UHGV virus genome: UHGV-0248979
Origin: a virus
Length of the DNA: 64,000 nucleotides
Strand: one strand, 5' to 3'
A program made the translations under genes and the position numbers. This document shows positions 10,541 through 61,587 of this stretch, one piece after another; within the stretch, counting starts at the first letter, position 1; the number at the start of each line of letters is the position of its first letter. The notes under the pieces were generated by a model, which saw only the letters and a program-made list of their open reading frames with translations, made no database searches and was not told the DNA's origin.

Positions 10541-11086
10541 TTAGAGGTGTTTTCCGATAACTTCCGAAACTAATTCGTAAAGGTCATCGTCACTGCACAC
10601 GTCTACGCTAATTCCGATATCGATACTACGACTGCGGAACCCTACTTTGAGCGTTTTACCGAATTCGGTTTGTAGGGCTTTATAGAGTCTATTCTTATCT
10701 TCTTTAAAGAGAGGAACAGGTAGTCTAACAGTGAACTTGTAATGTTCTTTCGAAACAAGTTCGTTAGAATAATTAAAACGTTTAGCCACACGAGTTCCGA
10801 TAATCTGTGTTATCAGCTTAAACATTTCTTCGTCGCTATACGGTGTTGCACCATAACCGATATCAATAGAATTTCTACGGAATCCTGCGCAGAATAATGC
10901 ACCGAATTGCTCACGGAATTCTTTGTGTAGAATATCTTTTTCTACGTCCCACAGCCCGTAACCCAAGTCAATCGTGAATTTGTATTTTTCTTTGTCGACT
11001 AATTCGTTAGTGTAATCAAGTCTAGTGAAGTTCATGGTATATTCTCCTAAAATGGTTTCGTTAAGTGAGAGTAACTGAACTCTCAC
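10541..11086 (-). CDS. hypothetical protein built from two tandem ~85-aa repeats
   Basis: Internal duplication (NELVDKEKYKFT...SIDIGYG vs NELVSKEHYKFT...SIDIGIS); likely true start is the ATG near 11035 (MNFTRLDY) with an AGGAG RBS. Confidence 0.6.
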   Translation of the reverse strand: MRVQLLSLNETILGEYTMNFTRLDYTNELVDKEKYKFTIDLGYGLWDVEKDILHKEFREQFGALFCAGFRRNSIDIGYGATPYSDEEMFKLITQIIGTRVAKRFNYSNELVSKEHYKFTVRLPVPLFKEDKNRLYKALQTEFGKTLKVGFRSRSIDIGISVDVCSDDDLYELVSEVIGKHL

Positions 11087-11106
11087 CTAGGTAATATATA
11101 TCTGAA
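11080..11106 (-). promoter_or_regulatory. conserved phage promoter element, copy 1
   Basis: Minus-strand TTCAGATATATATTACCTAGGTGAGAG followed by an 8-bp-stem hairpin, about 45-70 nt upstream of a start codon. Confidence 0.55.
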
Positions 11107-11116
11107 AATATTTTTA

Positions 11117-11419
11117 TTAAAAACCCGCAATAAAACTGCCTAGCGAGACACGCTGTAGGTATTTGGGCTTACGGGCCAGGTAACAGTTCTTAGGATTACC
11201 TATTGCCATCTGCGCAACTGCACGTTCTAAACGCGGTGCTTCTAAGATGGCGCGATAGTTCCCTTCGTAATGCATTAACCACGCACACTCTTCAACGAAA
11301 CGTTTTGCTTCTCGGTATTCTAACGTACGAATACGTTTCTTACCACGATACAAAACCACATCACCATTACTACGAAATACAACCGTTTCACGCTTCATTA
11401 ATGATCTCCCACATTTCAC
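11117..11419 (-). CDS. hypothetical protein
   Basis: 100-aa ORF in a co-oriented array. Confidence 0.45.
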   Translation of the reverse strand: MKCGRSLMKRETVVFRSNGDVVLYRGKKRIRTLEYREAKRFVEECAWLMHYEGNYRAILEAPRLERAVAQMAIGNPKNCYLARKPKYLQRVSLGSFIAGF

Positions 11420-11600
11420 GTTTCACTTCAAGTTTATATTTTTCTACTTCAGGGCGACAGTGAATCGTTGCCTTCTTGACCAACTCTAACCCACCGTCTT
11501 TCGTTAACACACCTTCACTAATCAGTTCGGTAATAGCACAAAGTTTAAAAACCATTATCGCCACCGTTTGCAATCCAGGTTGCAACACGAACGTGTGCAC
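11388..11600 (-). CDS. hypothetical small protein
   Basis: 70-aa ORF; overlaps neighbours, start uncertain. Confidence 0.4.
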   Translation of the reverse strand: MHTFVLQPGLQTVAIMVFKLCAITELISEGVLTKDGGLELVKKATIHCRPEVEKYKLEVKREMWEIINEA

Positions 11601-11856
11601 TGTGGAAGTTAGAGACTAAAAGTATTACGCCGCCTAACGTACGTGGAACGCGTAAAGCTTCGAAACGTCGGCAGTAAGAGCGTACACAATACTCGGAACC
11701 TAAGATAACGATTTCGCAGTATTCTGAACGAATAGGCAGTAGTTGAGAAACGAGTTTATCGCACGTTTCTTTGTTGTCTTCTAATAACCCGCCACTGAGA
11801 ATATAATTGACAATGTTCTCAGGTGCCGATGTGTTCGCGATTTTATTTTCCATCAT
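11545..11856 (-). CDS. hypothetical protein
   Basis: 103-aa ORF. Confidence 0.45.
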   Translation of the reverse strand: MMENKIANTSAPENIVNYILSGGLLEDNKETCDKLVSQLLPIRSEYCEIVILGSEYCVRSYCRRFEALRVPRTLGGVILLVSNFHSAHVRVATWIANGGDNGF

Positions 11857-12254
11857 TAAACTCCTATTGTGATCTCCGTAATGTGCATTCTTCGCATCTC
11901 ACGGGTCATTCTGTCCATTGCTCGTTGACACTCGAATAAATTGTCGTAGTATTTCTGGGCGGTAACATTGAATAAAACTCGACCATCTTTCAATTGTTTA
12001 GCAGCGACTCTTATAGTTTCCGATTCAAACAACCGACCGCCACCCCTACCAACCTTAACCATAACGTCACGAATAGTAACGTTTATAAGTTCACCGTTAG
12101 GGGAAGTCACAACCTCCGTATACCAGTCGCCTTCTTTAACGACATATTGTACCCTTTTACCGCACAGCCAGTTTTTAACTTTCTCGTTAACAAACAGTTG
12201 GGCTTTTAATGACAAACGCCTTTTTAAGTAAAATAAACGTATCATGTAAATCAC
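11856..12254 (-). CDS. hypothetical protein
   Basis: 132-aa ORF. Confidence 0.5.
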   Translation of the reverse strand: MIYMIRLFYLKRRLSLKAQLFVNEKVKNWLCGKRVQYVVKEGDWYTEVVTSPNGELINVTIRDVMVKVGRGGGRLFESETIRVAAKQLKDGRVLFNVTAQKYYDNLFECQRAMDRMTREMRRMHITEITIGV

Positions 12255-12288
12255 CTTATCTCCCTCGGTGTTCCCGAGGGAGAGCTAA

Positions 12289-12570
12289 TCACAGTTTCTC
12301 TTCTATTGTATCTAATCGAACTAACGCATCGTGACTGACTTTCCGTGCGTGTCCGATTGTTCCACCGAGGGCTTTTGTTGTTGGGTCTAAGGTATTCAGA
12401 CGGTGATACTGATAATCGATATCACGTATACAACGCGCCTGTTGTTTTACCACCCGAATTAATTGTCGTTTGGTTTGACGATTGTTACTAAGCTCCTGCC
12501 GTAATCGCGTGTTTTCTTTATAAAGCTCCTGTTGACGTGAGTTAATTAAACCCAACAACCAATCTAACAT
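12289..12570 (-). CDS. hypothetical protein
   Basis: 93-aa ORF. Confidence 0.5.
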   Translation of the reverse strand: MLDWLLGLINSRQQELYKENTRLRQELSNNRQTKRQLIRVVKQQARCIRDIDYQYHRLNTLDPTTKALGGTIGHARKVSHDALVRLDTIEEKL

Positions 12571-12572
12571 TT

Positions 12573-13984: not shown

Positions 13985-14428
13985 TTAAATCATGCCTGGG
14001 AATTCGAAATCGATTTTATCTAAAAGTTTGTAGTCGTCTTTTAGTTGAAGCATTAGTGTATTCTTAAACAGTTCAAGTGAACCGATAAAGTAAGCCGTAT
14101 AGCAGCTACCACGAACAGAAGAGGAAAGACCCAAGTCTCTTAAACACTGTTTCAAGATTTCATGTTCTTCAGCGGTACCGAAAAGTTGGAAATTGATAAC
14201 GGTAATCTGTTTATTAATGATTGCCGATAACCATTCTTTAATTCTTCTCGTGGTTATACGTTCTTTGAAATCACTAGCTTCTGGCAACCAGGTAATGTGA
14301 ACAAACGGTGCATCGTAATCCACGAGAACTTTCTGCTGCCAACGTACTTGCATCAAACCACGAATACGGTTTGCTAACGTTTCAGAATCACAAAGCAACA
14401 TAATGCCATTAGTAGTATTTGGTTTCAT
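13985..14428 (-). CDS. hypothetical protein
   Basis: 147-aa ORF. Confidence 0.55.
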   Translation of the reverse strand: MKPNTTNGIMLLCDSETLANRIRGLMQVRWQQKVLVDYDAPFVHITWLPEASDFKERITTRRIKEWLSAIINKQITVINFQLFGTAEEHEILKQCLRDLGLSSSVRGSCYTAYFIGSLELFKNTLMLQLKDDYKLLDKIDFEFPGMI

Positions 14429-15276
14429 AATTGCCCTTCCTTCTTAATGTAATCTTCAACCAACTTATCAAACACGATTTTTATCTTCTCGCGTTCTTCT
14501 TCACCCAATTCACCAGAACAGGTCAGCCCATTTATCTTCCCGTACCGTAATTCCAACACATATTTCAACCGATGACGTAAGGCTTGATCAAAATGCGTTG
14601 GAATATAAATTGGTTCGAAGTTGTGCAATAAAATAAAATCGTCTTCGGTGTGTTTAGGGGGTTCGAATTTTACTCTATCTAAGATAGTAAGCCAGCGTTG
14701 TCTGTCGACTAGCCGATCGTCCCAATAAACAGGTTTTGTTTTAGAGGGGGTAAGTGTATTGTAGTTACTGGAATCGGAGATACGGAAATTTGCTGTGACG
14801 TAAGTCTTCGTGAGTAACGAGAGAAGACAGATCGTTCCTTCTTCAGAGTAGCTTAAACCCTCCTCGAGTACGTCTTTAGCTTTCTTGAAGTAGTCTTCAA
14901 TATAGTCTTCAGCAATTGGTTGAATCTCTACTTCTATAGCGCTAATTTGGGGCCCGTCTATCCGCAATGGAAATTTTAGCTCAGCGATATATTGCCTATC
15001 CGATGTATAGGCGCGTGTAACAATAGGGTAAGTAACAGGCTTAGCCAAATGACGATATTCATCATCTCTAATGACTGAGTAACGTCCAAACCTACCTTTA
15101 TTCGATTTTGAAAAAGCGTAAAGGTCTTTTAGATACTCTAGATACTGGCCATCTGTCATTTCATCGGTATTAAATTCACGAATATAAAGTCGTTCAACAA
15201 ATCCCTTTGTTTGTTCGTAGTAATAACTGGGGTCCCTATTTGCTAGAATGCGCGGGAGATAATACGGGTGTGACAT
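14425..15276 (-). CDS. hypothetical protein, first gene downstream of promoter copy 2
   Basis: 283-aa ORF; RBS AAGGAGG upstream of the ATG. Confidence 0.6.
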   Translation of the reverse strand: MSHPYYLPRILANRDPSYYYEQTKGFVERLYIREFNTDEMTDGQYLEYLKDLYAFSKSNKGRFGRYSVIRDDEYRHLAKPVTYPIVTRAYTSDRQYIAELKFPLRIDGPQISAIEVEIQPIAEDYIEDYFKKAKDVLEEGLSYSEEGTICLLSLLTKTYVTANFRISDSSNYNTLTPSKTKPVYWDDRLVDRQRWLTILDRVKFEPPKHTEDDFILLHNFEPIYIPTHFDQALRHRLKYVLELRYGKINGLTCSGELGEEEREKIKIVFDKLVEDYIKKEGQL

Positions 15277-15323
15277 CTAATCCTCCTTTTCGGCTATAAC
15301 TAATGGAGTGAACGTAAATTTCA

Positions 15324-15350
15324 CTCTCTCCTAGGTAATATATATCTGAG
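15324..15350 (-). promoter_or_regulatory. conserved phage promoter element, copy 2
   Basis: Minus-strand CTCAGATATATATTACCTAGGAGAGAG plus a downstream hairpin. Confidence 0.55.
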
Positions 15351-15356
15351 AAAAAA

Positions 15357-15392
15357 TATAAAAACCGTAGGATGGACTTAGTCCATCCTACG
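15357..15392 (-). terminator. rho-independent terminator after the tailspike gene
   Basis: Hairpin ccgtaggatggac-ta-gtccatcctacgg followed by a T-run. Confidence 0.7.
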
Positions 15393-15399
15393 GTTTAAA

Positions 15400-17520
15400 T
15401 TAAATAACTACCCAGCTTTTACCATCGGAACCAATCTGCATTAGCGTAATACTTTCACTGGTATCAATGGGTTTGGCAAGACCTTCTGTCCCACTCTTTG
15501 GAGTGATGAGAACGTTTGAATTTTCCGGTTTAACGGTGATCTTACCAGCCTTATTTGCCACGATCTGAATATTTCTGCCCACGCTATATTCTAGATCAGG
15601 AATAGTAAGTTGGCCGCCACGGTTGGTGGGTGGGAAATACACATAAGACGACACATCTTCCTCAGATAACACTATGCTACCAGAATCACGATTGACCGAG
15701 ATCTCAAACTTAGAAATATCGATATCATAGGCAGTAACTTTCGTAATATCCGTCAGAACCAATTCGTTCAAATCGGTCTTAGCTGGACTGTTCGCCAGAT
15801 CAAATGGAGTACCATTCGTACCGTCCAGCACAGGTGTGACTGTGGTTTTATTGGCACCAGGATAAATGATTTCAAGCGTATGCCAGTTATTATCGTACGC
15901 ACCAAAAGTTCCTAATTTCGCATTTTGCTTTTTATGATGCATCAGATTAAGATTCGTAGCGTCGGTCTGTAAGAAAAAAGACATTAGGTACGGGTTCGTC
16001 TCAGCCACACCAGCGTCAGCAAATGTAGTACCAGAAGGTAGGTCGGACGCGGAAATACGCCAATAAAGTCCTAATCCGAAACGATCTGCTGCTAAATCAC
16101 CTTTTAGTCTAAAAGTAACGGTCAGACGTCCACCGTAACGTATCATGTCCGCAGCAGATGTCATTGACTTAGTTACATTCCAAGGTTTCATCTTTACAGC
16201 CTTTCTTAATTCGACGAAATGCCCGTTTCCATCCTCAGAATCTTGCACGGTTACGTTACAATCAACGATATTGTTCCAACCTTGCCCTTTCAGGGAACCA
16301 TCCCCACGACGTCCGTTATAACCCACAGACTCTACTAATGGGGTATAGCTTCTTACCACATTCTTATTGTCTTTGGAGCTCTTAGTGTCGTTCTTCGTCA
16401 GGAACATTGCACCAATCGCTGTTCTTGATAATATCTCGGCAGCTATTCTCTCTGAGATAATACCGCGTCGTGCCCAAGAACTGAAATGGCTATTCCTTGT
16501 TTCAGACGTCCAGTTTTTAACAGTACGGGAGGCAGCACCGTAATAGGCCGCACCAGTGATATCAGGATCGTCAGTGGGATCATTAGTCGGTACACGTTGG
16601 CCATTATCGTCGTACATGAATGGAACAAAAAAGATATTTTTTTGTTCATTGTTACGATAATTACCGTATACGGTTTCATATTGGGCAGGATATTTTTCCT
16701 TCCAATAATAGGTAGTGTCCCCGCAGATCCATGGTACTTCGGCGGTGTCGTACTCGGGCATCTGAGAGAGATGGTCAGAGAGATCAGTTCGGAAACGCTC
16801 TACCATTGCGTTAAATAACGCTGGTTGTTGTGCGTATTGTACTTTAGTCAGATCATACTCTCCCTGCATCCACACTACAGCCAAGAGTTTATTTTTAGGA
16901 TTAACTTCTAGAGCTTTTTTGGTCCGGCTAACTAAATCTTTATAAAGCGGTTTCTCCACCCCCCATAGCATTGACGACTCAGTGGCTCCTGTGGCTTCAT
17001 CGAAGGTACCTTCTGCACCACCCGTGAAAGCAGAACCGCCGCGTGCGCAGGGTACTAGTAAGATACCGGCGTTCTTAGGAATATACGGGAGAAGACGCTT
17101 CGCGATATGTAGACCTTGACCCACACATCCGTATTCACCTTTGCTCAAATTGGCATTGGGATGCGAGTATTTGGACATATCTTGCACGTCGTGCAGACAG
17201 TGATCCGCTGGAATGACGTCGTTATATTTACAATCAGCCCCATTAGGCGTTACCTTCGCACGGCGCGCCATCTGTTTAATTCGCGGATCGGGAGCGTCCA
17301 ACGTCGCCGGTAGAGGCAACCCTTCACCATAACTCATCGCATTAGATTGCCCGGCTATAGGAATCACGAAGTAATACTCCGGCTCCGTCGTGCCCTGAAG
17401 TTTTGCAATATCAATTTTATATTCTTTTTCTTCCTTAGAAAGAAGAACTAACGCACCTTTGAGATCGCCAGAGAAATTGTCGAGTTCATGGATACGTTTC
17501 TTTCCAATTGGCTGACTCAT
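15400..17520 (-). CDS. tailspike/tail fibre protein with SASA/SGNH-type carbohydrate esterase domain
   Basis: 706 aa; N-terminal segment homologous to the 1479-aa fibre N-terminus; GQSNAMSY motif typical of sialate O-acetylesterase-like SGNH hydrolases. Confidence 0.65.
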   Translation of the reverse strand: MSQPIGKKRIHELDNFSGDLKGALVLLSKEEKEYKIDIAKLQGTTEPEYYFVIPIAGQSNAMSYGEGLPLPATLDAPDPRIKQMARRAKVTPNGADCKYNDVIPADHCLHDVQDMSKYSHPNANLSKGEYGCVGQGLHIAKRLLPYIPKNAGILLVPCARGGSAFTGGAEGTFDEATGATESSMLWGVEKPLYKDLVSRTKKALEVNPKNKLLAVVWMQGEYDLTKVQYAQQPALFNAMVERFRTDLSDHLSQMPEYDTAEVPWICGDTTYYWKEKYPAQYETVYGNYRNNEQKNIFFVPFMYDDNGQRVPTNDPTDDPDITGAAYYGAASRTVKNWTSETRNSHFSSWARRGIISERIAAEILSRTAIGAMFLTKNDTKSSKDNKNVVRSYTPLVESVGYNGRRGDGSLKGQGWNNIVDCNVTVQDSEDGNGHFVELRKAVKMKPWNVTKSMTSAADMIRYGGRLTVTFRLKGDLAADRFGLGLYWRISASDLPSGTTFADAGVAETNPYLMSFFLQTDATNLNLMHHKKQNAKLGTFGAYDNNWHTLEIIYPGANKTTVTPVLDGTNGTPFDLANSPAKTDLNELVLTDITKVTAYDIDISKFEISVNRDSGSIVLSEEDVSSYVYFPPTNRGGQLTIPDLEYSVGRNIQIVANKAGKITVKPENSNVLITPKSGTEGLAKPIDTSESITLMQIGSDGKSWVVI

Positions 17521-18090: not shown

Positions 18091-18100
18091 CCCCCCCCCC
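18091..18100 (-). repeat. homopolymeric G10 tract (C10 on the plus strand), 5' of P5
   Basis: Ten consecutive C read directly at 18091-18100. Confidence 0.9.
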
Positions 18101-18134: not shown

Positions 18135-18642
18135 TTAGCTAATTCTCAAATCACGCAGTGCGCCTGTCGATTTCATCACGTTTTGGAACGCAGCGCTGAT
18201 GTTATTAGTCCAGTAATAATGCTGTCCGTTAATAACCTGCTGATAGGCCAGCGCGCAGGTGTTACCACCTAAATTTACGGTAATGTTAGAGGCTCTGCCT
18301 CCTTGTAAGTAAACCGCTAAAGTAGGCTTTGCGTTGGCAACTATCGTCGTTAACTGTAACTCAATACCTACTAAAGTTCCCACCCCGCAGTTACCCGCGT
18401 TTTGAATGGTTCCCTGATTTTTCTGGTTTAACGGCCAGCTTGGTCCTACTGCGCCCCATTTCTTACCTAAAGAATCGCTATATGCAGCGGTTGCAATTTT
18501 ACAGCCCATAGATCGTCCCACCATTTGACTCATCATAAAAGGTCTACCCAATCCTAATTTACTACCAGCAGCGCTCATCCATTGTTCGCCCGTTTCGTTC
18601 TTGGCCGAAGAACCGACCCACGAACCGGTTACCCCCCCCCAT
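18135..18642 (-). CDS. adhesin-like tail fibre-associated protein, paralog B; 5' end put out of frame by a G9 tract
   Basis: ORF track gives 18135..18578. The same frame is open upstream (…GSWVGSSAKNETGEQW) and matches paralog A's N-terminus; an ATG with AGGAG RBS at 18642-18640 is +1 out of frame across the G9 run. Confidence 0.6.
18632..18640 (-). repeat. homopolymeric G9 tract overlapping the start codon of adhesin-like paralog B
   Basis: Nine consecutive C at 18632-18640; the minus strand reads AT-GGGGGGGGG-TAACC. Confidence 0.9.
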
Positions 18643-27713: not shown

Positions 27714-27758
27714 TTTCTTTTCTCCTAATCATTAAAATAGCCACAGTTGTAAAAAAGA

Positions 27759-28879: not shown

Positions 28880-29093
28880 TGACAGGTGCTAATGCAACCA
28901 TCGTACCATCGTCCTTAACAATCTGTAAGTTACCTGCGCGAACCAGACCTTTAAAGGTAATCTTCACGCCCTTACGTAAACTCTTCACATTGAAACCGTC
29001 GAGTTTGAGTGTTTTGATTTTCTCAGGTTTACCTTCTTCGTAATAAGAAAGTACATTACCTGCACGTTTTTCAACAATATAGATCTTAGCCAT
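28824..29093 (-). CDS. small basic protein
   Basis: 89 aa, Lys-rich; GGAG RBS; preceded by a degenerate promoter-like element. Confidence 0.5.
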   Translation of the reverse strand: MAKIYIVEKRAGNVLSYYEEGKPEKIKTLKLDGFNVKSLRKGVKITFKGLVRAGNLQIVKDDGTMVALAPVSAAKTTAGRGCYGSSRKI

Positions 29094-29111: not shown

Positions 29112-29148
29112 GTTAAGTGAGAATTCTCACATAGATGAAATATATCTT
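29112..29148 (-). promoter_or_regulatory. degenerate copy of the conserved promoter element
   Basis: Minus-strand AAGATATATTTCATCTATGTGAGAATTCTCACTTAAC (GATATAT ... GTGAGA hairpin ... CACTTAAC). Confidence 0.3.
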
Positions 29149-29166
29149 AAATTTTTTAGACAGCCA

Positions 29167-29586
29167 TTAACATAGCGCAATATTAACCGACTTACCAGGC
29201 AGCGGGAAATGCTGAAGTTCTATCGATAGAAGTTTCCTGTCAATAGTCAGTATTTCATCAACGTTGGGTGTAAGGCGGAACACAGTGCGCGGTAACGTGA
29301 AAGGCACGTTCGTTGAGCAGTTTTTTAACAGTAACTGATCCTGAGGATAGTCAATTTCTACCACCCTCCCAATTACCCAACGTTCGTGAACCTCACCACC
29401 TAGCGGTGCAGTTAGTGTCCGTTGCAAGCGCTGTAAATTCGTTTCGTCGGTATTAGTGTGGTTTTGGTTCGACATAGATTTCCCCAAACACGTATGCGGT
29501 TCCGGCTTCATTTGTCGGTTTAGCAACACACCATTTCCATTCTTTAGTTTCAGGGATTTGCCAGGATAACAAAAGAGAACCCTCAC
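29167..29586 (-). CDS. hypothetical protein (likely start at the internal ATG near 29475)
   Basis: ORF overlaps the upstream gene; an internal MSNQNHT start avoids most of the overlap. Confidence 0.45.
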   Translation of the reverse strand: MRVLFCYPGKSLKLKNGNGVLLNRQMKPEPHTCLGKSMSNQNHTNTDETNLQRLQRTLTAPLGGEVHERWVIGRVVEIDYPQDQLLLKNCSTNVPFTLPRTVFRLTPNVDEILTIDRKLLSIELQHFPLPGKSVNIALC

Positions 29587-29770: not shown

Positions 29771-29825
29771 TTAAGCTGTTCCTCAATTAATTTGTTTACG
29801 TGTGCATAATTAGACGCGGAAGCGT

Positions 29826-29866
29826 AAAAATAAATTCTCCCTCTCTCCAAACGGAGAGAGGGGAAG
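29826..29866 (-). terminator. rho-independent terminator
   Basis: Hairpin ctccctctctcc-aaac-ggagagagggga with an adjacent A/T run. Confidence 0.65.
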
Positions 29867-33989: not shown

Positions 33990-34349
33990 TTAGTGTGTTA
34001 CAGTGTTAGTGATAAAACGCACATTCTTCTTGGTACGTTTAATGGACGTGTTTGCAACGTAGTCCAATGCGGACTCTACGTGAACGGTTACTGAGCAACG
34101 ACCCTTAACGGAATTAAAACTAATCTGATATTTCAGACGAATCGCATCAGCAACTTTCATCATAATCGGCAAGCTTAAACGTTCTACGCGTTCGTTCTTA
34201 ATAGATGAGATAACGGGTTGTGAAACTTTCGCAAGCTGGGCAAGCTCACGCTGGGTAATGTCTTTCGTGGTCAAATGACAAACTACGTAAGACAAATGAA
34301 GGCCAAATTTACGTTTTGCCAGAACGATGGAATTGTGATTGTAAGCCAC
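33990..34349 (-). CDS. helix-turn-helix (XRE-like) transcriptional regulator
   Basis: 119 aa; HTH segment ITQRELAQLAKVSQPVISSIKN; GTG start with AAAGGAG RBS; first gene after promoter copy 3. Confidence 0.65.
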   Translation of the reverse strand: MAYNHNSIVLAKRKFGLHLSYVVCHLTTKDITQRELAQLAKVSQPVISSIKNERVERLSLPIMMKVADAIRLKYQISFNSVKGRCSVTVHVESALDYVANTSIKRTKKNVRFITNTVTH

Positions 34350-34397
34350 GGTAATACTCCTTTAGGTTAACAAGTCGGTGTAAAGAGTTAATTGTAA

Positions 34398-34424
34398 CTC
34401 TCACCTAAGTAATATATATCTGAG
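34398..34424 (-). promoter_or_regulatory. conserved phage promoter element, copy 3
   Basis: Minus-strand CTCAGATATATATTACTTAGGTGAGAG plus a downstream hairpin. Confidence 0.55.
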
Positions 34425-34468
34425 AAAAAATAAAATATAGGTACCACCGTTGGGTGGTACCTAAGCGG

Positions 34469-41712: not shown

Positions 41713-41754
41713 TCCTTCTTTTAAGTCTCACACTATGTTTAAAAATTGTAAAAA

Positions 41755-41792
41755 TAAAAAGAAGTAACCTCTACCCGAAGGTAGAGGTTAAT
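41755..41792 (-). terminator. rho-independent terminator
   Basis: Hairpin aacctctacc-cgaa-ggtagaggtt with a T-run on the minus strand. Confidence 0.65.
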
Positions 41793-51771: not shown

Positions 51772-53547
51772 TTAACGGCCAATCTTCGCAATGTCTTCTT
51801 CGGTTGCTTGGATCAAGTCGTTGAGTTTTGGATTACGTACCATCACCAGTTGGGTATTCGTCTTCATATACGGATTGAGAATGCCCGATTTGAACGGTGA
51901 TGATTTCGGAATGTAATACACGTTACCACATTCCAGATGAGATGCAGAGGCATGTTTTGTCCGGTCGTTAAGGTTAACCGTCTTACCGCCCTTGCTGCTA
52001 CGTTTTGATTCTGTTTCTGTCTGGCTGATAGCATGGGTTGAAACCCCCAGCACCATAGACTCTGTAGAAGCGTTGAAATAACTTACACCGCCGTTACCGG
52101 TAATGTTCCGCAATACCAGGCTGGTTACAATGTCTTTATTCAACGCACTGCGTATCATGTTCGCACAAGACTCCGGTGTTCTATTCTCCGTTTGTCCCAA
52201 GTGAAAACGAATCGCAGCAATGGTAGGTGTAAAACCACGCTCACCTAATAACAGGTAATCTGTTACGGTCAGACGTTTTCCATACATTGACGGAATATCG
52301 CCTTGTTTCGTGAGACGCGTTCTCACCATCAACTTCGTCGCGTACCAGAAGAAATCAAACATATCCATATCGTCCGGGATATCGGGATCTGACATCATTA
52401 ACTCGCCACGGAATGTTGAGTTAACGTAGCGTTCACACTCCGTATAGTGTTTCGTCATGCTGTGTGCCAGTTCAATATCAGACGGTTTAAGTCCAACAAT
52501 ACTTCTCCCCAAAATCTCCCGCCAAATTGCGGAGGAATTCAGGTTTACAACATCGTCCTCCATTGCAAGTTCATTAATAGCGGTAAACAACGGCGGTAAA
52601 GGAACAACGTTGCCGTTTTTAATCGCTTGTTTTCCGCAATAATAGTGCGCTGCTTTAAAGAATGCAGAAATCGCTACGAGTAATAAGTGTTCGTTTTGAT
52701 CCCATCCCGCTTTATCGAGATTCGGTAAAGCCTCTGCAGGAACCGTCACTACGTACATAATCGCCCGATTATGCTTAGGTTCACCTGAACCGATTACTAC
52801 TTTTTTATCGAGATCGATTTCAGGTACTTTGAATGCAGGATATATCTCTACATCCACACCAGTATAACGTTTGATGGCTTCCTTAAATCCATAACGTCCG
52901 AATAACCAGTACATTAACGGTTTCTCGTCCGTATCAGGATGTGTGGCGTTTTTGGCTTTAAACAAATTGTTTGTTCCGGGCAAGAACAACTCTTCTTTCT
53001 TCCCATTCACTAAAATACGTACCGGGTGCTTACAGAATTTTAGTGACGCTTTACGTTTAAAGTCAAAATTAACAAACACCCCGCCATGCTCACGACAGAT
53101 ACCCGGCTGATGAATAACAGGCGCAACGTGGTACGTTGTCCCGTAATAGTTCATCAACCCACCACGACGAATGAATGGCAAGTTAATCGGTCTTGAGATC
53201 GGCCTTGAGTCGCCAGGAATACGGAACGACGACATGACCATATACGCATCGGTATTCGCTATAGACATCACCCCACGACGTTTATCCATTCTGCTGCTCT
53301 CTGAGCGAGACAACTTGTAGATAAAAGTTTCGAACGGCGACATTAAACGAACACCCAATACAGCCAAGCCTTCAGGAACACGCGGATTCTCTACAGGATG
53401 GTAATCTAGCTCACGTTTCAAGATACGATGCACACGATCGTGAATACCATCTTTGGCTTGTGTATATCCGACTCCTTCCGCAATCGCGCGGTTAAAGGGT
53501 ACTATTTTACCACTCTCTTTAAGCTTTTTGATTGCATCTTTAAACAC
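51772..53547 (-). CDS. hypothetical large protein (possible structural or assembly protein)
   Basis: 591-aa ORF co-oriented with the putative capsid gene. Confidence 0.65.
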   Translation of the reverse strand: MFKDAIKKLKESGKIVPFNRAIAEGVGYTQAKDGIHDRVHRILKRELDYHPVENPRVPEGLAVLGVRLMSPFETFIYKLSRSESSRMDKRRGVMSIANTDAYMVMSSFRIPGDSRPISRPINLPFIRRGGLMNYYGTTYHVAPVIHQPGICREHGGVFVNFDFKRKASLKFCKHPVRILVNGKKEELFLPGTNNLFKAKNATHPDTDEKPLMYWLFGRYGFKEAIKRYTGVDVEIYPAFKVPEIDLDKKVVIGSGEPKHNRAIMYVVTVPAEALPNLDKAGWDQNEHLLLVAISAFFKAAHYYCGKQAIKNGNVVPLPPLFTAINELAMEDDVVNLNSSAIWREILGRSIVGLKPSDIELAHSMTKHYTECERYVNSTFRGELMMSDPDIPDDMDMFDFFWYATKLMVRTRLTKQGDIPSMYGKRLTVTDYLLLGERGFTPTIAAIRFHLGQTENRTPESCANMIRSALNKDIVTSLVLRNITGNGGVSYFNASTESMVLGVSTHAISQTETESKRSSKGGKTVNLNDRTKHASASHLECGNVYYIPKSSPFKSGILNPYMKTNTQLVMVRNPKLNDLIQATEEDIAKIGR

Positions 53548-54568: not shown

Positions 54569-54694
54569 GGGTGACCCAAGCTAAATTTTAATGATGTTAC
54601 ATATCTTTAGTTTAAACTGTATTTTTTCCATACATACTCCTTTAAAGCCAACTGACTGTCTCCCTTTAATAATATCTATCCAAAAAATAATAGA

Positions 54695-54745
54695 AAGAAA
54701 AAAATAAAAGGTCTAAGCCCCGAAGGGCTTAGACTCTTTTTAAGC
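54695..54745. terminator. strong bidirectional rho-independent terminator after the codon-optimised structural gene
   Basis: Hairpin gtctaagccc-cgaa-gggcttagac flanked by an A-run and a T-run. Confidence 0.75.
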
Positions 54746-54749: not shown

Positions 54750-57044
54750 TTACTTACCGGCAGCAGCTTTGCCTTCGCCAGCAACGTTACCTGCTACACC
54801 ACCTTCGGTTTGTTTCTGACCGTTCTGTTCAACAGAAACATTGTAAGCCAGTTTTTCTTCAACCAGTTTGGTGATGCCTTTAACCCAGATCAGACCAGTG
54901 ATCGGGCAGTGGCAGATGTGCGCGTTACGCGGCTGTACGGCCAGCTCTTTAGAGGTAGAGCCGTTACGCTGAATGTTGATGTTAGTAACCATGATCGGAG
55001 ACCAGAAGTGGTTACCCCAGTTCAGCACGTTGTAGGAACCATCGTCCGCAGTCGGAACTTTCAGGAACCATTGCAGACGACGAGTCCAGGAACCGTCAGC
55101 TGCGTTGTAGATACGCCAGCGGTCATCGTTGGTGGTGATCACTTCGTATTCGTAGCGATCGCCCAGCAGACGTTGGTCGCCCTGTACCAGCAGCAGCATG
55201 GATGCAGTCGGTTCGTCGGTTGCAATAACAACCTTCGGCAGAATGTCCGGATCAGCAGTGTACAGACGCAGCGCAGGAATGAAGCGAGATTCCTGGATAG
55301 CCTGAGTTACCTGATTACCGATACGCTGTACCAGACCCTGACGAGCGTTGATCAGTGCTTCTTTGGTATCCAGGGACTGTACAACTTTATCAACGTTGTA
55401 GTCAGACTCTTTGAACCACGGAGCAACCCAGTGACGGCCCAGACCACGAATGGCCGGTTTGTCCCACGGAGTGATCATGCTTGCAGCAGCGTTACGTACC
55501 GCTTCGGTGTAAGACAGTGTCTGAGTGATAGCCAACTGTTCGTTACGGATGTTAACTGCGGAAATCAGGTCGTCCAGACGCTCGGTATCGTCGTATTCAA
55601 CGCCAACCGGAGACTTGGTCAGAATCGGAGAACCGTATTGCAGCTTGTAGTTTTCTTGTTCCCAGATTGGGTCGAGCAGCAGACCCTGGGTACGACGGTT
55701 TTCGTTGGTACGAGTACCATCGAAACGCCAGCCGATCAGTTCAAGTTTCAGATTTTCCAGGACAGCTTTGCCGGTACCAGTCTTAATATCAACTTTGTTA
55801 CCGGTAGCGTCGTACAGACCTTCGATTTCCAGTTTGTGACCAGCGATGTCAACTTTACCACCGAACTGACCGGTAGTGAACAGAGACATGTTGATGGTGA
55901 TCACATAACGCAGGGTGTAGGAGTTCTGTTCCAGTGTTTTCAGAGCCGGAATAGCTTCGCCTTTCCAGTCGGTAGTTTTCGCGTTCAGAGAGAACGCAGT
56001 ACGACGGAATTGCAGTACCAGCTCACGGCCATCACCTTCAGCAGGGCGCTGGAAGGTTGCGAACTGCATGTCGCGAACGTGCAGTTTAATGAATTTACCT
56101 GCTTTTGCATCTTCAGCCGCTTTACGTACGGAAATCAGCAGGCTGCCCAGAGCACAGCCCGGCGCGATTTCATCAGTTTCGTCGTAACCTTCGATTACGA
56201 TACCCGGATGCGCGGACAGCTGGAACAGGTTCAGAGTGTCTTTAGCAAAGCTCAGGTAGTTAGTCGGGTACGGAGGTACACGACCCAGACGAACAGATTC
56301 GTTCGGTACCAGATCTTCGCTTACGAAGTATTCAGCGTTTTCACCGGTTTCCATTACGTAAGGAACGATGTTGATCGCTTCGTCCTGGAGAACAGTGTGG
56401 TCAGTCAGCGCTTCATGTAAGTTACGACGATGATCTTCAACAACGTCTTTGCTCAGCAGTGCGTTCATTACACCGCGAGAAACGGTGGTCACTTTGGTAC
56501 GTACGGTAATACCAACATCGTTAGTGTCAACAGTGATGGTCGGGAACAGAGTCTCAGCAAAACGAGACTGGGTTTCCAGAGCACGTACGTTCAGCGTCCA
56601 GGTCAGACCCAGGTTTTTGTCGTAGTCTTTGTTGGTGTAGTATTCCTGAGCGACAACCATACGCTCTTTGCCCCAGTCGCCGTTACCAGCTTGGGAGCCA
56701 GGAATCGCAACGTCCAGGTTAAAACGGCTATGGAATTCCGGTTTAGCGTATTCTTGAGCTACTTTTTCTTGCAGGTCCATACCGTGACCAGCAGCACCCA
56801 GAATCATTGCAGAAGCAACTTCCGCAGCGTGGGACATTTTCTTACCGCCAGCAAACGCGTTTGCGTAGTGCTGTGCAGCGTCGTCACGCAGGGTACCAAA
56901 AACTTTAGTGTTGCTACGTACAGATTCACCAGCAACGATGGTGTTCCACATTTCGCCAGCAGTGTTGTTACTAATGACGCTTTGTACCAGCGAGTTACCA
57001 GCTTGTACGAGTTTCTCCAGATTAGAGATTCGGGTATCTTTCAT
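54750..57044 (-). CDS. major virion structural protein, probable major capsid protein
   Basis: 764 aa; codon usage visibly distinct (GC-rich third positions, CTG/CGT/GGT/CAG) as in very highly expressed genes; flanked by strong terminators. Capsid versus sheath not resolved. Confidence 0.45.
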   Translation of the reverse strand: MKDTRISNLEKLVQAGNSLVQSVISNNTAGEMWNTIVAGESVRSNTKVFGTLRDDAAQHYANAFAGGKKMSHAAEVASAMILGAAGHGMDLQEKVAQEYAKPEFHSRFNLDVAIPGSQAGNGDWGKERMVVAQEYYTNKDYDKNLGLTWTLNVRALETQSRFAETLFPTITVDTNDVGITVRTKVTTVSRGVMNALLSKDVVEDHRRNLHEALTDHTVLQDEAINIVPYVMETGENAEYFVSEDLVPNESVRLGRVPPYPTNYLSFAKDTLNLFQLSAHPGIVIEGYDETDEIAPGCALGSLLISVRKAAEDAKAGKFIKLHVRDMQFATFQRPAEGDGRELVLQFRRTAFSLNAKTTDWKGEAIPALKTLEQNSYTLRYVITINMSLFTTGQFGGKVDIAGHKLEIEGLYDATGNKVDIKTGTGKAVLENLKLELIGWRFDGTRTNENRRTQGLLLDPIWEQENYKLQYGSPILTKSPVGVEYDDTERLDDLISAVNIRNEQLAITQTLSYTEAVRNAAASMITPWDKPAIRGLGRHWVAPWFKESDYNVDKVVQSLDTKEALINARQGLVQRIGNQVTQAIQESRFIPALRLYTADPDILPKVVIATDEPTASMLLLVQGDQRLLGDRYEYEVITTNDDRWRIYNAADGSWTRRLQWFLKVPTADDGSYNVLNWGNHFWSPIMVTNINIQRNGSTSKELAVQPRNAHICHCPITGLIWVKGITKLVEEKLAYNVSVEQNGQKQTEGGVAGNVAGEGKAAAGK

Positions 57045-59949: not shown

Positions 59950-60120
59950 TTAGTAGTTACTTCTCCTTTCGGTGAAGATTTGTACTCGAGGATTATTAGA
60001 AGGTTTAAGCCTTTTATTTAATCCTAGCTGTTGAACTTCTCTTAATCGTTCATTAAACCTCGCTTGTTCTGCATAGCTGTTTGAAATAGAAGTAAAGATA
60101 CGTGAATTGTTGTTAGTCAT
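59950..60120 (-). CDS. small protein sORF-C (56 aa), tandem family member
   Basis: ATG with GAGG RBS; conserved LG(M/L)(D/N)KRLKPS...QIFTE core. Confidence 0.6.
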   Translation of the reverse strand: MTNNNSRIFTSISNSYAEQARFNERLREVQQLGLNKRLKPSNNPRVQIFTERRSNY

Positions 60121-60205
60121 GTTAAAACCTCACACGAGTTGGGGATTAAGCTATTACGTGACTGTAATAGCGACAAGTAGGGACTGCTGGTACAGCCCCT
60201 ACTGC

Positions 60206-60233
60206 TTTATCTTCTCTTTCGAAAAGATAAAGC
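60206..60233. promoter_or_regulatory. conserved hairpin element, copy 2 (ctttatcttctctttcgaaaagataaag)
   Basis: Same loop as copy 1 with a compensatory A/T to T/A change in the stem; flanked by GC-rich hairpins at 60177-60205 and 60235-60267. Confidence 0.5.
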
Positions 60234-60454
60234 GCCTAAGGGGAGTGCGCCAACACACCCCTTTAGGTTGTTACCTTCTTTCAACTATCAACTGGATGTT
60301 TCTTGGGTATGCAACCTTGGGCTACGTTAACGTTGGTCGCGGTATTGCACTAACCCTTCGCTGAAACTCAAGTTGTTTTGTTGACAACTCGTTTAACCGT
60401 CGAAACAGCAGTTCATGTTTCGTGAACTCATCTCCTATGTCGAATTTGCGAAAA

Positions 60455-60502
60455 TAAATAAAGTGTACCCCTAATCCCGAAAAGGATTAGGGGTTGCTTT
60501 TA
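60455..60502. terminator. hairpin terminator
   Basis: Hairpin cccctaatcc-cgaaa-aggattagggg followed by TTGCTTTTATTT. Confidence 0.6.
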
Positions 60503-61315
60503 TTTAGTCGCTACGTATTGAACATGGCCACATTCCTTACATTCCACGTTGGCTTTCGGGATTGTCAGGCCGGTTAAAGGAACACGTATTTGATACTGTG
60601 CTCCACATTCTTCACAAACAAAATCGTATTCTGGATAAACACGACCTTCTAATTTCTCTTCTTTCCTTAGTGTGCCTGCTAAGAACAGCATTGCGCCTAA
60701 CGCTTCATTAATCTGCTGTTCCCATTCTCCGTCTAACGGGTAAGCGAACGCGCGAGTCAACGTTTCCACCATCTCTGGAGTATTACTTACATAAACGTGT
60801 TTCAGTTCAAACTCAACACGTTCTAAACCAAACAATACGCGCGCCGTCACCGTAACATTATCCAACGTTTGTGCAAACACAACGGGATTATCGTCACCGT
60901 GCATTGCGAATAACGCAGCACGTTCGTATTCGATATCACTCCACTCGATTAGTTCTACAGATTTAATCGCTTCCGCAATCTCAGCATTACCGAACGTTTC
61001 GTGTTCCAATAATCCGACGATAACTTCATTCAACGATTTCAATTGCTGTAATCGAATCGTAGGATCGGTATTCACGATAAGTAAACGATGCATTCTGGAT
61101 TTCAACCAGTTAATCGTTCCTTCTACACCGCCCCTAAACGAGCAGATGCTTATCACTTCAGGTTCACGAAGGATAAGAGTAGATTTTCCTGCTGCCGTAC
61201 TCAAGTAGAGTTTAAAAGACTTATCGTTAGACTCTGCAACGATGGCAATGTCTTCAGTTGGAACGAAGTTTTCATTGCTCAGCCCACGCGGAAAATAATC
61301 TTTAATAGTAATCAT
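60500..61315 (-). CDS. hypothetical protein with C-terminal CxxC...CxxC pair
   Basis: 271 aa; C-terminal CEECGAQ...CKECGH zinc-ribbon-like motif. Confidence 0.6.
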   Translation of the reverse strand: MITIKDYFPRGLSNENFVPTEDIAIVAESNDKSFKLYLSTAAGKSTLILREPEVISICSFRGGVEGTINWLKSRMHRLLIVNTDPTIRLQQLKSLNEVIVGLLEHETFGNAEIAEAIKSVELIEWSDIEYERAALFAMHGDDNPVVFAQTLDNVTVTARVLFGLERVEFELKHVYVSNTPEMVETLTRAFAYPLDGEWEQQINEALGAMLFLAGTLRKEEKLEGRVYPEYDFVCEECGAQYQIRVPLTGLTIPKANVECKECGHVQYVATK

Positions 61316-61370
61316 CTTTTATGCTCCAATTAATAAAAAAATTAAGGGCACCCGAAGGTGCCTTATACAT

Positions 61371-61514
61371 TAACCACGACCAGTGCACTGTGCAACGGAA
61401 TTACCGTTGTCGATGCAAGTGTCGTAGCCTTTGTCGATATCCAGGTACAGGCAACCCAGAACAACAGCGATAACAACAGCGAAGATAGCTTTTTTGTGTT
61501 TTACAGAAATCATG
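61371..61514 (-). CDS. small signal-peptide/lipoprotein-like peptide (47 aa), unannotated
   Basis: ATG with AGGAG RBS directly downstream of promoter copy 4; MISVKHKKAIFAVVIAVVLG-C then a Cys-containing ~27-aa mature part; optimal-looking codons. Confidence 0.5.
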
Positions 61515-61559
61515 ATATAACTCCTAATTAGGTATTCGATAAATGAGTATTACGTAAAC

Positions 61560-61587
61560 TCTCACCTAGGTAATATATATCTGAAAT
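61560..61587 (-). promoter_or_regulatory. conserved phage promoter element, copy 4
   Basis: Minus-strand TTCAGATATATATTACCTAGGTGAGAG, about 50 nt upstream of the 47-aa sORF. Confidence 0.55.

What the first reader, a model, noticed from the sequence alone, without database searches (positions are those of the whole stretch)
11080..61587. Conserved 27-nt phage promoter element containing TATATTAC, followed by variable hairpins
Four near-identical copies of minus-strand TTCAGATATATATTAC(C/T)TAGG(T/A)GAGAG occur at 11080-11106, 15324-15350, 34398-34424 and 61560-61587. Each lies in an intergenic gap about 40-70 nt upstream of the first start codon of a minus-strand gene block, usually right after a terminator. 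Two degenerate copies (29112-29148, 35116-35158) keep TATTAC/GATATAT, a GTGAGA-initiated hairpin and CACTTAAC. The core TATATTAC matches, as I recall it, the early promoter consensus reported for phiKZ-like jumbo phages transcribed by a virion RNA polymerase, which would fit the 764-aa capsid-sized protein; the phage family assignment is tentative. The hairpin after the motif differs in sequence but not in position.
Basis: partly seen in the sequence, partly recalled or inferred. Interest (0 to 1): 0.6.

Follow-up and report, generated by a model that had tools for sequence, protein, structure and literature searches.

The report
Jumbo-phage early promoters with 5' hairpins
The repeated 27-base motif is this giant phage's version of the known phiKZ-type early promoter, read by the RNA polymerase the virus carries in its particle, and each copy is followed by a small hairpin that would sit at the very start of the early messenger RNA.

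Summary
Four near-identical minus-strand copies of TTCAGATATATATTACYTAGGWGAGAG exist (0 expected by chance). All are intergenic, 44-48 nt upstream of a minus-strand start codon.

The window is a phiKZ-like jumbo phage: it has a PhiKZ-type capsid protein and a homologue of the phiKZ gp123 polymerase subunit, and it is syntenic with Salmonella phage SPN3US.

The same motif recurs 3-7 times per genome in about 95 jumbo-phage records. In phiKZ, TATATTAC sits in the same extended context upstream of about 25 genes, including PHIKZ054, which the literature assigns an early promoter motif.

Refinements:
- One "degenerate" copy (29124-29168) is supported. The other (35116-35158) is not.
- A further variant copy (GATAGATATTAT, 54658-54702) lies after the capsid gene, at the same position as promoters in SPN3US and phiKZ upstream of the polymerase-subunit gene.
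- The hairpin starts exactly at the inferred +1 G in 41 of 42 copies across phages. It shows compensatory changes and is not systematic in phiKZ (8 of 25 sites).

I read the hairpin as a 5'-terminal RNA stem-loop, probably stabilising early mRNA. That part is inference.

The parts
11080..11124 (-). Early promoter copy A (about -40 to +5). TATATTAC lies at 11091-11098 and the inferred +1 G at 11084.
   Evidence: Exact motif. Clade weight-matrix score 64.0. phiKZ-trained matrix score 20.9.
11067..11084 (-). Hairpin at +1 of copy A (GAGAGU-loop-ACUCUC, -8.4 kcal/mol).
10541..11035 (-). First gene downstream of copy A: a 164-aa hypothetical protein with an internal duplication and no Pfam or PHROG match.
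15324..15368 (-). Early promoter copy B. The inferred +1 is at 15328. This is the only copy with GGAGAG instead of GGTGAG.
   Evidence: score 44.9.
15305..15328 (-). Hairpin at +1 of copy B (-7.6 kcal/mol).
15362..15396 (-). Intrinsic-terminator-like stem (16 pairs) plus T-run, ending the upstream gene immediately before copy B.
14425..15276 (-). First gene downstream of copy B: a 283-aa hypothetical protein that heads a gene block of about 4.2 kb running to copy A.
34398..34442 (-). Early promoter copy C. The inferred +1 is at 34402. It is syntenic with the SPN3US copy at 94244.
   Evidence: score 53.7.
34383..34402 (-). Hairpin at +1 of copy C (8 bp, -6.5 kcal/mol).
34438..34463 (-). Terminator-like stem plus T-run immediately upstream of copy C.
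33990..34349 (-). First gene downstream of copy C: a 119-aa helix-turn-helix DNA-binding protein (phrog_7126, Pfam HTH_37). It sits at the position of the SPN3US gene annotated 'HTH DNA binding protein' (gp165 in the RefSeq record).
61559..61603 (-). Early promoter copy D. The inferred +1 is at 61563. It is syntenic with the SPN3US copy at 65418.
   Evidence: 26.2; 62.9.
61545..61563 (-). Weak hairpin at +3 to +19 of copy D (-2.7 kcal/mol, not significant on its own).
61370..61513 (-). First gene downstream of copy D: a 47-aa protein with a hydrophobic stretch (phrog_8574), followed directly by a terminator-like stem at 61347-61362.
54658..54702 (-). Variant promoter copy with core GATAGATATTAT (54669-54680). 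It lies after the capsid-gene terminator, upstream of the 336-aa gene and the 591-aa gp123-like polymerase gene. It has no convincing +1 hairpin.
   Evidence: Matching positions: SPN3US 72487 (after the capsid gene, upstream of the genes numbered gp190/gp189 in the RefSeq record) and phiKZ 120657 (after gp120, upstream of gp121-123). Fold.
51772..53547 (-). Homologue of phiKZ gp123, annotated 'polymerase'. This gene shows that the phage has the phiKZ-type transcription system.
54750..57044 (-). PhiKZ-type major capsid protein (764 aa).
   Evidence: (PF25620, E 4.8e-209).
29124..29168 (-). Degenerate promoter copy (TTTAAGATATATTTCATCTATGTGAGAA). Three mismatches fall in the 8-nt core. It lies upstream of the 89-aa gene at 28824-29093. 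Whether it is active is unknown.
   Evidence: score 21.6.

Best explanation
Each copy is an early promoter of a phiKZ-like (Chimalliviridae-type) jumbo phage. It is recognised by the multisubunit RNA polymerase that is packaged in the virion and injected with the DNA.

The promoter spans about -34 to +1. It has an upstream T(-32)/A-tract, then T(-23)-T(-21)CAGAT, then the -10-like core TATATTAC at -14 to -7, then the clade-specific spacer CYTAGGT. Initiation is inferred at the G of GAGAG, the 7th nucleotide after the core.

The transcript then begins with a stem-loop whose 5' arm is the conserved GAG(A/C/G).. start. An untranslated leader of about 50 nt follows, with a Shine-Dalgarno site and the first gene of a block of small, mostly uncharacterised genes.

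What is shown: the motif, its position and orientation, its conservation across phages while the flanks diverge, its close match to the motif in phiKZ, and the covariation in the hairpin.

What is inferred: the exact start site, early timing, dependence on the virion polymerase, and the role of the hairpin. My preferred reading of the hairpin is a 5'-terminal RNA stem-loop that protects early mRNAs from 5'-end-dependent decay (RNase E / RppH). This is how the 5' stem-loops of E. coli ompA mRNA and the T7 gene 10 leader are known to act (established knowledge, not tested here).
For: - The motif is real and not a chance match. All copies are intergenic and co-oriented with the downstream gene, 44-48 nt from the start codon.
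- In window 10-18 kb the motif is the only DNA with any megablast match to other phages. That points to selection on the element rather than shared ancestry of the flanks.
- Short-query blastn finds 399 places in 95 records, mostly 3-7 per genome. Nearly all records are genomes above 200 kb from Salmonella, Erwinia, Cronobacter, Vibrio, Pseudomonas (PA1C type) and Serratia PCH45.
- SPN3US has 6 exact copies, all on the main coding strand and all about 65 nt upstream of a start codon (annotation). An IMG/VR scan found 39 copies on 14 contigs, 13 of them 107-246 kb.
- In phiKZ, TATATTAC occurs 42 times, about 25 in the same extended context. The conserved T(-32), A-tract, T(-21), AGAT(-19 to -16) and TG at -1/+1 are shared with the window. 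These sites include PHIKZ054, to which the literature assigns the early promoter motif at a primary start site, and PHIKZ260, which has a mapped primary start site.
- A phiKZ-trained matrix recovers the window's copies.
- The literature describes an AT-rich motif of about 10 nt near -10, upstream of early operons in all such phages, read by the virion polymerase. It reports 28-32 early promoters in phiKZ.
- The phage family is confirmed by the capsid protein and the gp123 homologue.
- Hairpin: in 41 of 42 distinct copies a stem begins at nucleotide 1-3 from the inferred +1 (mean -5.9 kcal/mol, mean z -2.2).
- Covariation: 84.1% of cells are paired against 70.8% in shuffles (0 of 500 reach it). 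37 cells change on both sides against 15.2 expected. The covariation score is 0.387 against 0.171, and 0.07-0.13 when the partners are slid. My own permutation gave 131 of 165 paired against 96 +/- 5 (0 of 5000).
- G-U pairs (32) outnumber A-C (7), so the structure is specific to the sense strand.
Against: - No transcript data exist for this phage or, as far as I could find, for SPN3US-like phages. Start site, timing and polymerase are all assigned by homology.
- Only 4-6 copies occur per 64 kb here and 6 exact copies in the 240 kb of SPN3US, against about 28-32 in phiKZ. The strict motif may therefore mark only a subclass of early promoters.
- The variant class GATAGATATTAT, not the strict motif, precedes the polymerase-subunit genes.
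- The hairpin alignment was fitted to each sequence's own minimum-energy fold, and many copies are orthologues. Both inflate covariation statistics. RNAalifold on an ungapped alignment finds nothing, because the loops differ in length.
- One in-window hairpin (copy D) is not better than shuffles.
- The stabilising role of the hairpin is untested.
Confidence: 0.85

Rival explanations
1. The motif is a promoter for the second, non-virion phage polymerase (middle or late class), or is used by both polymerases, rather than an early promoter of the virion polymerase.
For: Temporal class cannot be read from sequence. In phiKZ some genes have both early and middle start sites. In 201phi2-1 the polymerase-subunit genes are not all behind early promoters.
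Against: The published phiKZ middle motif (an AT-rich motif near -24; TACT near -22 preceded by an A-rich repeat) and late motif (TATG at the start site) look nothing like this element. The element matches the phiKZ motif in the core, the -20 region and the -30 region.
Confidence: 0.07
2. The motif is an ordinary host sigma-70 promoter (TATATT as the -10 box) used by the bacterial polymerase.
For: TATATT is 5 of 6 matches to TATAAT. The 11080 copy gets a loose 9-of-12 match (TTAATA-16-TATATT).
Against: Only 1 of the 4 copies passes even the loose scan, and such matches are no more frequent than in shuffles. Conservation runs through the spacer and past the start site, with no conserved -35 hexamer at 16-18 nt. 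phiKZ development is reported to be independent of the host polymerase.
Confidence: 0.03
3. The conserved DNA, including the ACCTAGGT palindrome or the hairpin, is chiefly a binding site for a protein or a DNA-level structure. It could be an operator for the helix-turn-helix protein encoded behind copy C, or an N4-style DNA hairpin promoter.
For: ACCTAGGT is a perfect 8-bp palindrome that overlaps the inferred start site. An HTH gene lies directly behind one copy. Phage N4's virion polymerase does recognise DNA hairpins (established knowledge).
Against: The palindrome is broken (ACTTAGGT) in 20 of 42 copies, and this spacer is not conserved in phiKZ. The hairpin lies downstream of the -10-like core, varies in loop length (3-11 nt) and in sequence, and relies on G-U pairs that would be A-C mismatches on the other strand. 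phiKZ sites lack a systematic hairpin. An operator function layered on top of the promoter is not excluded.
Confidence: 0.05

Closest known systems
phiKZ early promoters (virion RNA polymerase). Sources: Ceyssens et al. 2014 J Virol, not readable here; Wicke et al. 2020, PMC8244752; Putzeys et al. 2024, PMC10914365.
   Same: Both have the core TATATTAC, an upstream AGAT, a T-rich -20 region and an A-tract near -30, and TG at -1/+1. Both lie in intergenic gaps on the coding strand upstream of small uncharacterised genes and of the gp121-123 cluster.
   Different: The spacer CYTAGGT and the start GAGAG are fixed in this clade but variable in phiKZ. phiKZ sites have no systematic +1 hairpin (8 of 25; mean -2.0 kcal/mol, z -0.4). 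There are fewer strict copies per genome here.
Early-promoter motifs predicted for all RNA-polymerase-encoding jumbo phages (Lavysh et al. 2016 Virology, as summarised in PMC7598289), and the early promoters of 201phi2-1 (PMC11512511).
   Same: They share the concept: an AT-rich motif of about 10 nt near -10 with conserved -20 and -30 regions, upstream of hypothetical genes.
   Different: I could not read Lavysh 2016. I therefore cannot say whether the SPN3US logo or the hairpin was already shown there.
The T7 gene 10 leader and the E. coli ompA 5' stem-loop (5'-terminal hairpins that stabilise mRNA; established knowledge).
   Same: A purine-rich transcript start (T7: GGGAGA; here: GAGAG) forms the 5' arm of a stem-loop at the extreme 5' end.
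   Different: The polymerases are unrelated. The stabilising effect has not been shown here.
Phage N4 virion-polymerase hairpin promoters.
   Same: Both involve a virion-carried polymerase, and both have a hairpin of fixed position and variable sequence next to the promoter.
   Different: The N4 hairpin is the promoter itself: it lies upstream of the start site and has a 3-nt loop. The hairpin here lies downstream of the core, and its loops are 3-11 nt long.

Membership tests
phiKZ-type virion-RNA-polymerase early promoter | An AT-rich conserved core (TATATTAC in phiKZ) centred near -10. | tested here: met
   The core is present in all four copies. The same 8-mer lies in the extended context at about 25 phiKZ sites, including PHIKZ054 and PHIKZ260.
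phiKZ-type virion-RNA-polymerase early promoter | Conserved -20 (T-rich) and -30 regions. | tested here: met
   T(-32), the A-tract at -29 to -27, T(-23), T(-21) and CAG at -20 to -18 are conserved outside the searched pattern and are shared with phiKZ. The phiKZ-trained matrix finds the window's copies.
phiKZ-type virion-RNA-polymerase early promoter | Intergenic position, co-oriented with the downstream operon, with a short leader. | tested here: met
   Leaders are 44-64 nt long (median 51) across 39 copies.
phiKZ-type virion-RNA-polymerase early promoter | The genome encodes the two phiKZ-type multisubunit RNA polymerases. | tested here: inconclusive
   The window holds a gp123 homologue and a PhiKZ-type capsid gene. 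Virion polymerase subunits are not in the window. The relative SPN3US, which carries the same motif, is annotated with several RNA polymerase beta-like genes.
phiKZ-type virion-RNA-polymerase early promoter | A primary transcript 5' end about 7-10 nt downstream of the core, appearing early and independent of host polymerase and of new protein synthesis. | not testable with these tools
   No transcript data are available. The start site at 11084, 15328, 34402 and 61563 is inferred from the shared TATATTAC-N5-TG spacing and from the literature statement that the motif is centred near -10.
Host sigma-70 promoter | -35 and -10 hexamers 16-18 nt apart. | tested here: not met
   Only copy A gives a loose 9-of-12 match. 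Copies B, C and D give none.
N4-type DNA hairpin promoter | A hairpin (5-7 bp stem, 3-nt loop) upstream of the start site that acts as the recognition element. | tested here: not met
   The hairpin lies downstream of the conserved core, with loops of 3-11 nt. It is not systematic at the phiKZ sites.
Intrinsic terminator or attenuator | A GC-rich stem followed by a U-run. | tested here: not met
   The stems are AU-rich. The following U's are partly the pairing partners of GAG and are absent where G1 pairs with C. Only copy B's hairpin is flagged, weakly, by the scan.
Known RNA family (Rfam) | A match at or above a family's gathering score. | tested here: not met
   There are no Rfam matches anywhere in the window.

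The most novel reading that the evidence does not exclude
The stem-loop fixed at +1 is a separate, previously undescribed functional module. Several Enterobacterales-, Serratia- and PA1C-type jumbo phages have added it to the ancestral virion-polymerase promoter, whereas phiKZ itself has not.

The module would mark or protect the first transcripts, which are made inside the early infection vesicle. It could block 5'-end-dependent decay in phages that lack a detectable homologue of PHIKZ037. I recall PHIKZ037 as Dip, phiKZ's inhibitor of the RNA degradosome. Alternatively, the module could act as a handle for export or translation of vesicle-made mRNA.

A second promoter flavour (GATAGATATTAT, without a hairpin) would then serve the polymerase-subunit genes.
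Probability: 0.3. Interest if true: 0.55.

Novelty: new member of a known kind. Interest (0 to 1): 0.35.

Why it matters
The motif gives a ready map of where early transcription begins in an uncultured relative of SPN3US. It shows that the recognition sequence of the virion polymerase is conserved almost base for base from Pseudomonas phage phiKZ to enterobacterial jumbo phages. This is useful for annotation, for engineering these phages, and for in vitro work on a polymerase whose promoter recognition is not yet understood.

The covarying hairpin at +1 and the hairpin-less variant promoter upstream of the polymerase genes are concrete, testable leads on how early mRNAs of nucleus-forming phages are handled.

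The core finding itself is expected for this phage family.

Tried and rejected
It falls below the matrix threshold, and its TATTAC and GTGAGA parts are 14-15 nt apart instead of 6. It shares TTACAACTGT with the gap at 27714-27758 and may belong to another signal.
- RNAalifold on an ungapped alignment of 30 copies found only a spurious 4-bp helix, because the loops differ in length. I replaced it with an arm-anchored alignment and a permutation test.
- Literal searches for TATATTAC and ATATATTAC in papers returned nothing relevant. The consensus is printed only in figures.
- Ceyssens 2014 and Lavysh 2016 are not held. No supplementary tables of phiKZ or 201phi2-1 start sites are held. I therefore derived the phiKZ sites from the genome itself.
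- The sigma-70 scan was negative.
- The Rfam and tRNA scans found nothing.
- I searched for a homologue of PHIKZ037 (which I recall as Dip, the degradosome inhibitor) in SPN3US and in the window. None was found (best E 1.6). This fits the stabilisation idea but does not prove it.
- A leader element GAC[TC][ATG]T close to the Shine-Dalgarno site is enriched (15 of 39 against 10.5% background) but is not universal. I left it as an observation.

Full report
**Observation**

The pattern TTCAGATATATATTACYTAGGWGAGAG, allowing up to 3 mismatches, matches four times in the window. All four matches are on the minus strand: 11080-11106, 15324-15350, 34398-34424 and 61559-61585. Each has 0-1 mismatch, and no match occurred in 100 dinucleotide-preserving shuffles. 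TATATTAC occurs only at these four places.

An alignment of the four loci shows that similarity is confined to the motif, a T/A-rich stretch upstream of it, and scattered leader positions. A crude gene call makes the window about 94% coding and mostly minus-strand. All four copies lie in gaps, and they end 44-48 nt before the start codons at 11035, 15276, 34349 and 61513. Strong terminator-like stems with T-runs lie directly upstream of copies B and C. Another lies about 130 nt upstream of copy D. None was found for copy A.

**What the window is**

The capsid-helicase region matches Erwinia phages Asesino and phiEaH2 and Salmonella phage SPN3US at about 80% nucleotide identity. The 764-aa protein is a PhiKZ-type major capsid protein (PF25620, E 4.8e-209).

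The 591-aa protein lies two genes downstream of the capsid gene. It belongs to phrog_2943 ('polymerase') and aligns end to end with phiKZ gp123 (E 8e-20). By my recollection of the phiKZ literature, gp123 is a subunit of the non-virion RNA polymerase.

Gene order follows SPN3US, with the window's minus strand equal to the SPN3US plus strand. The tentative family assignment is therefore correct.

**Conservation elsewhere**

In window 10-18 kb the motif region is the only DNA with a megablast match to any phage record. A sensitive search with 57 nt around copy A finds 399 places in 95 records, mostly 3-7 per genome. The records come from:
- SPN3US-like Salmonella and Escherichia phages;
- many Erwinia jumbo phages;
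- Cronobacter phage CR5;
- Vibrio jumbo phages;
- Pseudomonas PA1C-type phages;
- Serratia phage PCH45.

SPN3US has six exact copies, at 56299, 65418, 94244, 113991, 165692 and 223282. All are on the main coding strand, and each lies about 65 nt upstream of a gene (annotation). Three of them are syntenic with window copies.

A scan of IMG/VR with GATATATATTACYTAGGWGAG returned 39 copies on 14 contigs, 13 of them 107-246 kb long. Together with the window this gives 42 distinct contexts. Positions outside the searched pattern are also conserved: A-34, T-32, A-29 to -27, T-23, T-21, C-20 and A-19 upstream, and A+4 and T+6 downstream.

**Link to phiKZ**

I could not read the original consensus: Ceyssens 2014 and Lavysh 2016 are not held, and the logos exist only as figures. 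I therefore fetched the whole phiKZ genome.

TATATTAC occurs 42 times in phiKZ, 33 of them on the plus strand. About 25 sit in one extended context, for example GCTAAAAAATAATTAAGATATATATTACATGTTTG or TTCAATTTCAGATTTATATTACTAAGGTG, just upstream of genes. These sites include:
- PHIKZ054, to which Wicke et al. 2020 assign the early promoter motif at a primary start site;
- PHIKZ260, for which the same paper maps a primary start site;
- PHIKZ068;
- the site at 120657, just after the capsid gene and upstream of gp121-123.

The count fits the 28-32 early promoters reported.

A weight matrix built from only the first seven phiKZ sites scores window copies D, A and C at 26.2, 20.9 and 15.3 as its top hits. 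The 29127 site comes next. Nine of ten shuffles stayed below 8, and one reached 15.2.

phiKZ sites and the window share TATATTAC-N5-TG. The review PMC7598289 says the motif is centred near -10. Wicke et al. describe a T-rich element upstream of -19. Both statements place +1 at or next to the G that follows, which is 11084, 15328, 34402 and 61563 in the window. This is inference, not measurement.

The review also states that such a motif can be found upstream of presumed early operons in every RNA-polymerase-encoding jumbo phage, and that it must be read by the virion polymerase. The kind of element is therefore known.

A matrix built from the 42 clade copies gives the following scores in the window (the maximum in 20 shuffles was 4.0):
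- 64.0, 62.9, 53.7 and 44.9 for the four strong copies;
- 21.6 for 29124-29168;
- 11.0 for 54658-54702.

The 29124 site (TTTAAGATATATTTCATCTATGTGAGAA) is collinear with the motif but has three mismatches in the core. It is a plausible weak or decayed copy.

The 54658 site has the core GATAGATATTAT. That 12-mer occurs seven times in SPN3US, all on the plus strand. These include positions just upstream of a gene annotated 'RNA polymerase beta subunit' (28970) and just after the capsid gene, upstream of the gp123-like gene (72487 and 72685). phiKZ has a canonical early motif at the same relative position (120657). This conservation of position across three distant phages argues that the window's 54658 site is a real promoter for the polymerase-subunit gene at 51772-53547.

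**The hairpin**

I folded 32 nt from the inferred +1 for all 42 distinct copies. In 41 of them a hairpin forms whose first paired base is nucleotide 1-3, and nucleotide 1 in most. The mean energy is -5.9 kcal/mol and the mean z against shuffles is -2.2.

The 5' arm starts with the invariant GAG, and the rest of the stem differs between copies with matching changes in the 3' arm. Examples are GAGAGUUA/UAACUCUU, GAGCGUUA/UAACGCUU, GAGAUUAC/GUAAUCUC, GAGCAUUGA/UCAAUGCUU and GAGGAU/AUCCUC.

Two tests support covariation:
- Swapping 3' arms among 33 distinct hairpins lowers pairing at stem positions 4-8 from 131 of 165 to 96 +/- 5.4 (0 of 5000 permutations reach the observed value).
- The pair-counting tool, run on an arm-anchored alignment, gives 84.1% paired against 70.8% in shuffles. 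It finds 37 cells changed on both sides against 15.2 expected. The covariation score is 0.387 against 0.171 (0 of 500 shuffles reach each), and 0.07-0.13 when the partners are slid.

There are three caveats. The arms were anchored on each sequence's own best fold. Many copies are orthologues. A plain RNAalifold run fails because the loop lengths differ.

G-U pairs (32) far outnumber A-C (7). The structure is therefore specific to the sense strand, that is, to the RNA or the non-template strand.

Inside the window, copies A, B and C have clear hairpins. Copy D's hairpin is weak, and the two variant copies have none. Single copies from PA1C, CR5 and PCH45 also show a stem at +1, but a Vibrio copy does not. 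phiKZ's 25 sites show no systematic hairpin: mean -2.0 kcal/mol, z -0.4, and 8 of 25 start at nucleotide 1-3. I found no paper that mentions this hairpin, but I could not read Lavysh 2016.

**Mechanism**

The best-supported reading is as follows. The injected virion polymerase binds the region from -34 to -7 and starts at the G of GAGAG. It transcribes a leader of about 50 nt and then a block of small genes:
- copy A: a 164-aa protein of unknown function with an internal repeat;
- copy B: a 283-aa protein of unknown function, heading a block of about 4.2 kb;
- copy C: a 119-aa helix-turn-helix protein;
- copy D: a 47-aa protein with a hydrophobic stretch, followed directly by a terminator.

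The nascent RNA folds into a 5'-terminal stem-loop. By analogy with the ompA and T7 gene 10 leaders (established knowledge), this would shield the 5' end from RppH/RNase E-dependent decay. SPN3US and the window have no detectable homologue of PHIKZ037, which I recall as Dip, phiKZ's degradosome inhibitor. This is compatible with that idea but proves nothing. Other roles, such as promoter escape or a handle for export or translation of mRNA made in the early infection vesicle, are not excluded.

**Rivals**

- Host sigma-70 promoter. Only copy A passes a loose scan, at background frequency.
- Middle or late promoter of the non-virion polymerase. The published phiKZ middle and late motifs are quite different.
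- Operator or N4-like DNA hairpin. The ACCTAGGT palindrome is broken in 20 of 42 copies. The hairpin is downstream of the core and is strand-specific.
- Known RNA family. There are no Rfam matches.

**Verdict**

The element is a new member of the known class of phiKZ-type early promoters. Its interest is modest. The parts that may be new are the covarying +1 hairpin and the hairpin-less GATAGATATTAT flavour upstream of the polymerase-subunit genes.

Noticed in passing
window 54658-54702 (-); SPN3US (L001-L005) 23811, 25227, 28970, 72487, 72685, 92541, 184045: A second promoter flavour has the core GATAGATATTAT(CT) instead of GATATATATTAC. All copies are on the coding strand, and several lie upstream of genes annotated as RNA polymerase subunits. 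It has no consistent +1 hairpin.
   Followed up: partly
window 27745-27754 (-), 33260-33269 (-); similar TTACAACTGT at about 35130-35150 (-), T-run + TTTTTACAAT at about 41740-41760 (-) and T-run + TTTTTACGCT at about 29815-29830 (-): Several intergenic gaps carry a T-run followed by TTTTACA(A/G)CT or TTACAACTGT shortly after a terminator and before the next gene. This could be another promoter class (middle or late). The exact pattern is not enriched in SPN3US.
   Followed up: partly
window 3308-3316, 18091-18100, 18632-18640 (minus strand): Runs of 9-10 G occur in intergenic gaps (0.12 expected by chance). Two of them lie in consecutive gaps between the predicted tail-fibre gene (19483-23922) and the SASA/DUF6645 gene (15400-17520). 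They are possible slippage-prone tracts. Their function is unknown.
   Followed up: no
leaders of motif-linked genes, e.g. window 34365-34380 (-); loci L007-L043: A short element GAC(T/C)(A/T/G)T often lies 7-15 nt before the Shine-Dalgarno site, for example TTGACTATCAAGGA or ATCGACTATTA..AAGGAG. It occurs in 15 of 39 motif-linked leaders, against 10.5% of other SPN3US gene starts.
   Followed up: partly
window 11085-11092, 15329-15336, 61564-61571 (-): The spacer between the core and +1 forms the perfect palindrome ACCTAGGT, which contains an AvrII site (CCTAGG), in 22 of 42 copies. The other 20 copies have ACTTAGGT.
   Followed up: partly
window 10541-11035 (-): The 164-aa protein behind copy A is an internal tandem duplication (NFTRLDYTNELVDKEKYKFTIDL... 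and RFNYSNELVSKEHYKFTVRL...). It has no Pfam or PHROG match.
   Followed up: no
window 61347-61513 (-): Copy D drives what looks like a single-gene unit: a 47-aa protein with a hydrophobic stretch (phrog_8574), followed at once by a GC-rich terminator stem. SPN3US has a 47-aa gene at the same place.
   Followed up: no
window 15400-17520 (-), 19483-23922 (-): The region with no nucleotide similarity to known phages encodes two proteins. One is a 706-aa protein with SASA carbohydrate-esterase and DUF6645 domains. The other is a 1479-aa tail-fibre-like protein with Gp34 trimerisation and endosialidase-chaperone domains. They are probably the host-range module of this lineage.
   Followed up: no
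whole window; L025, L034: Copy D and its flanks are identical to IMG/VR contigs IMGVR_UViG_3300029126_000001 (225 kb) and IMGVR_UViG_3300045988_113438 (221 kb). The nearest cultured phages are only about 80% identical at the capsid gene. The window therefore comes from an uncultured or recently deposited lineage near SPN3US, Asesino and phiEaH2.
   Followed up: partly
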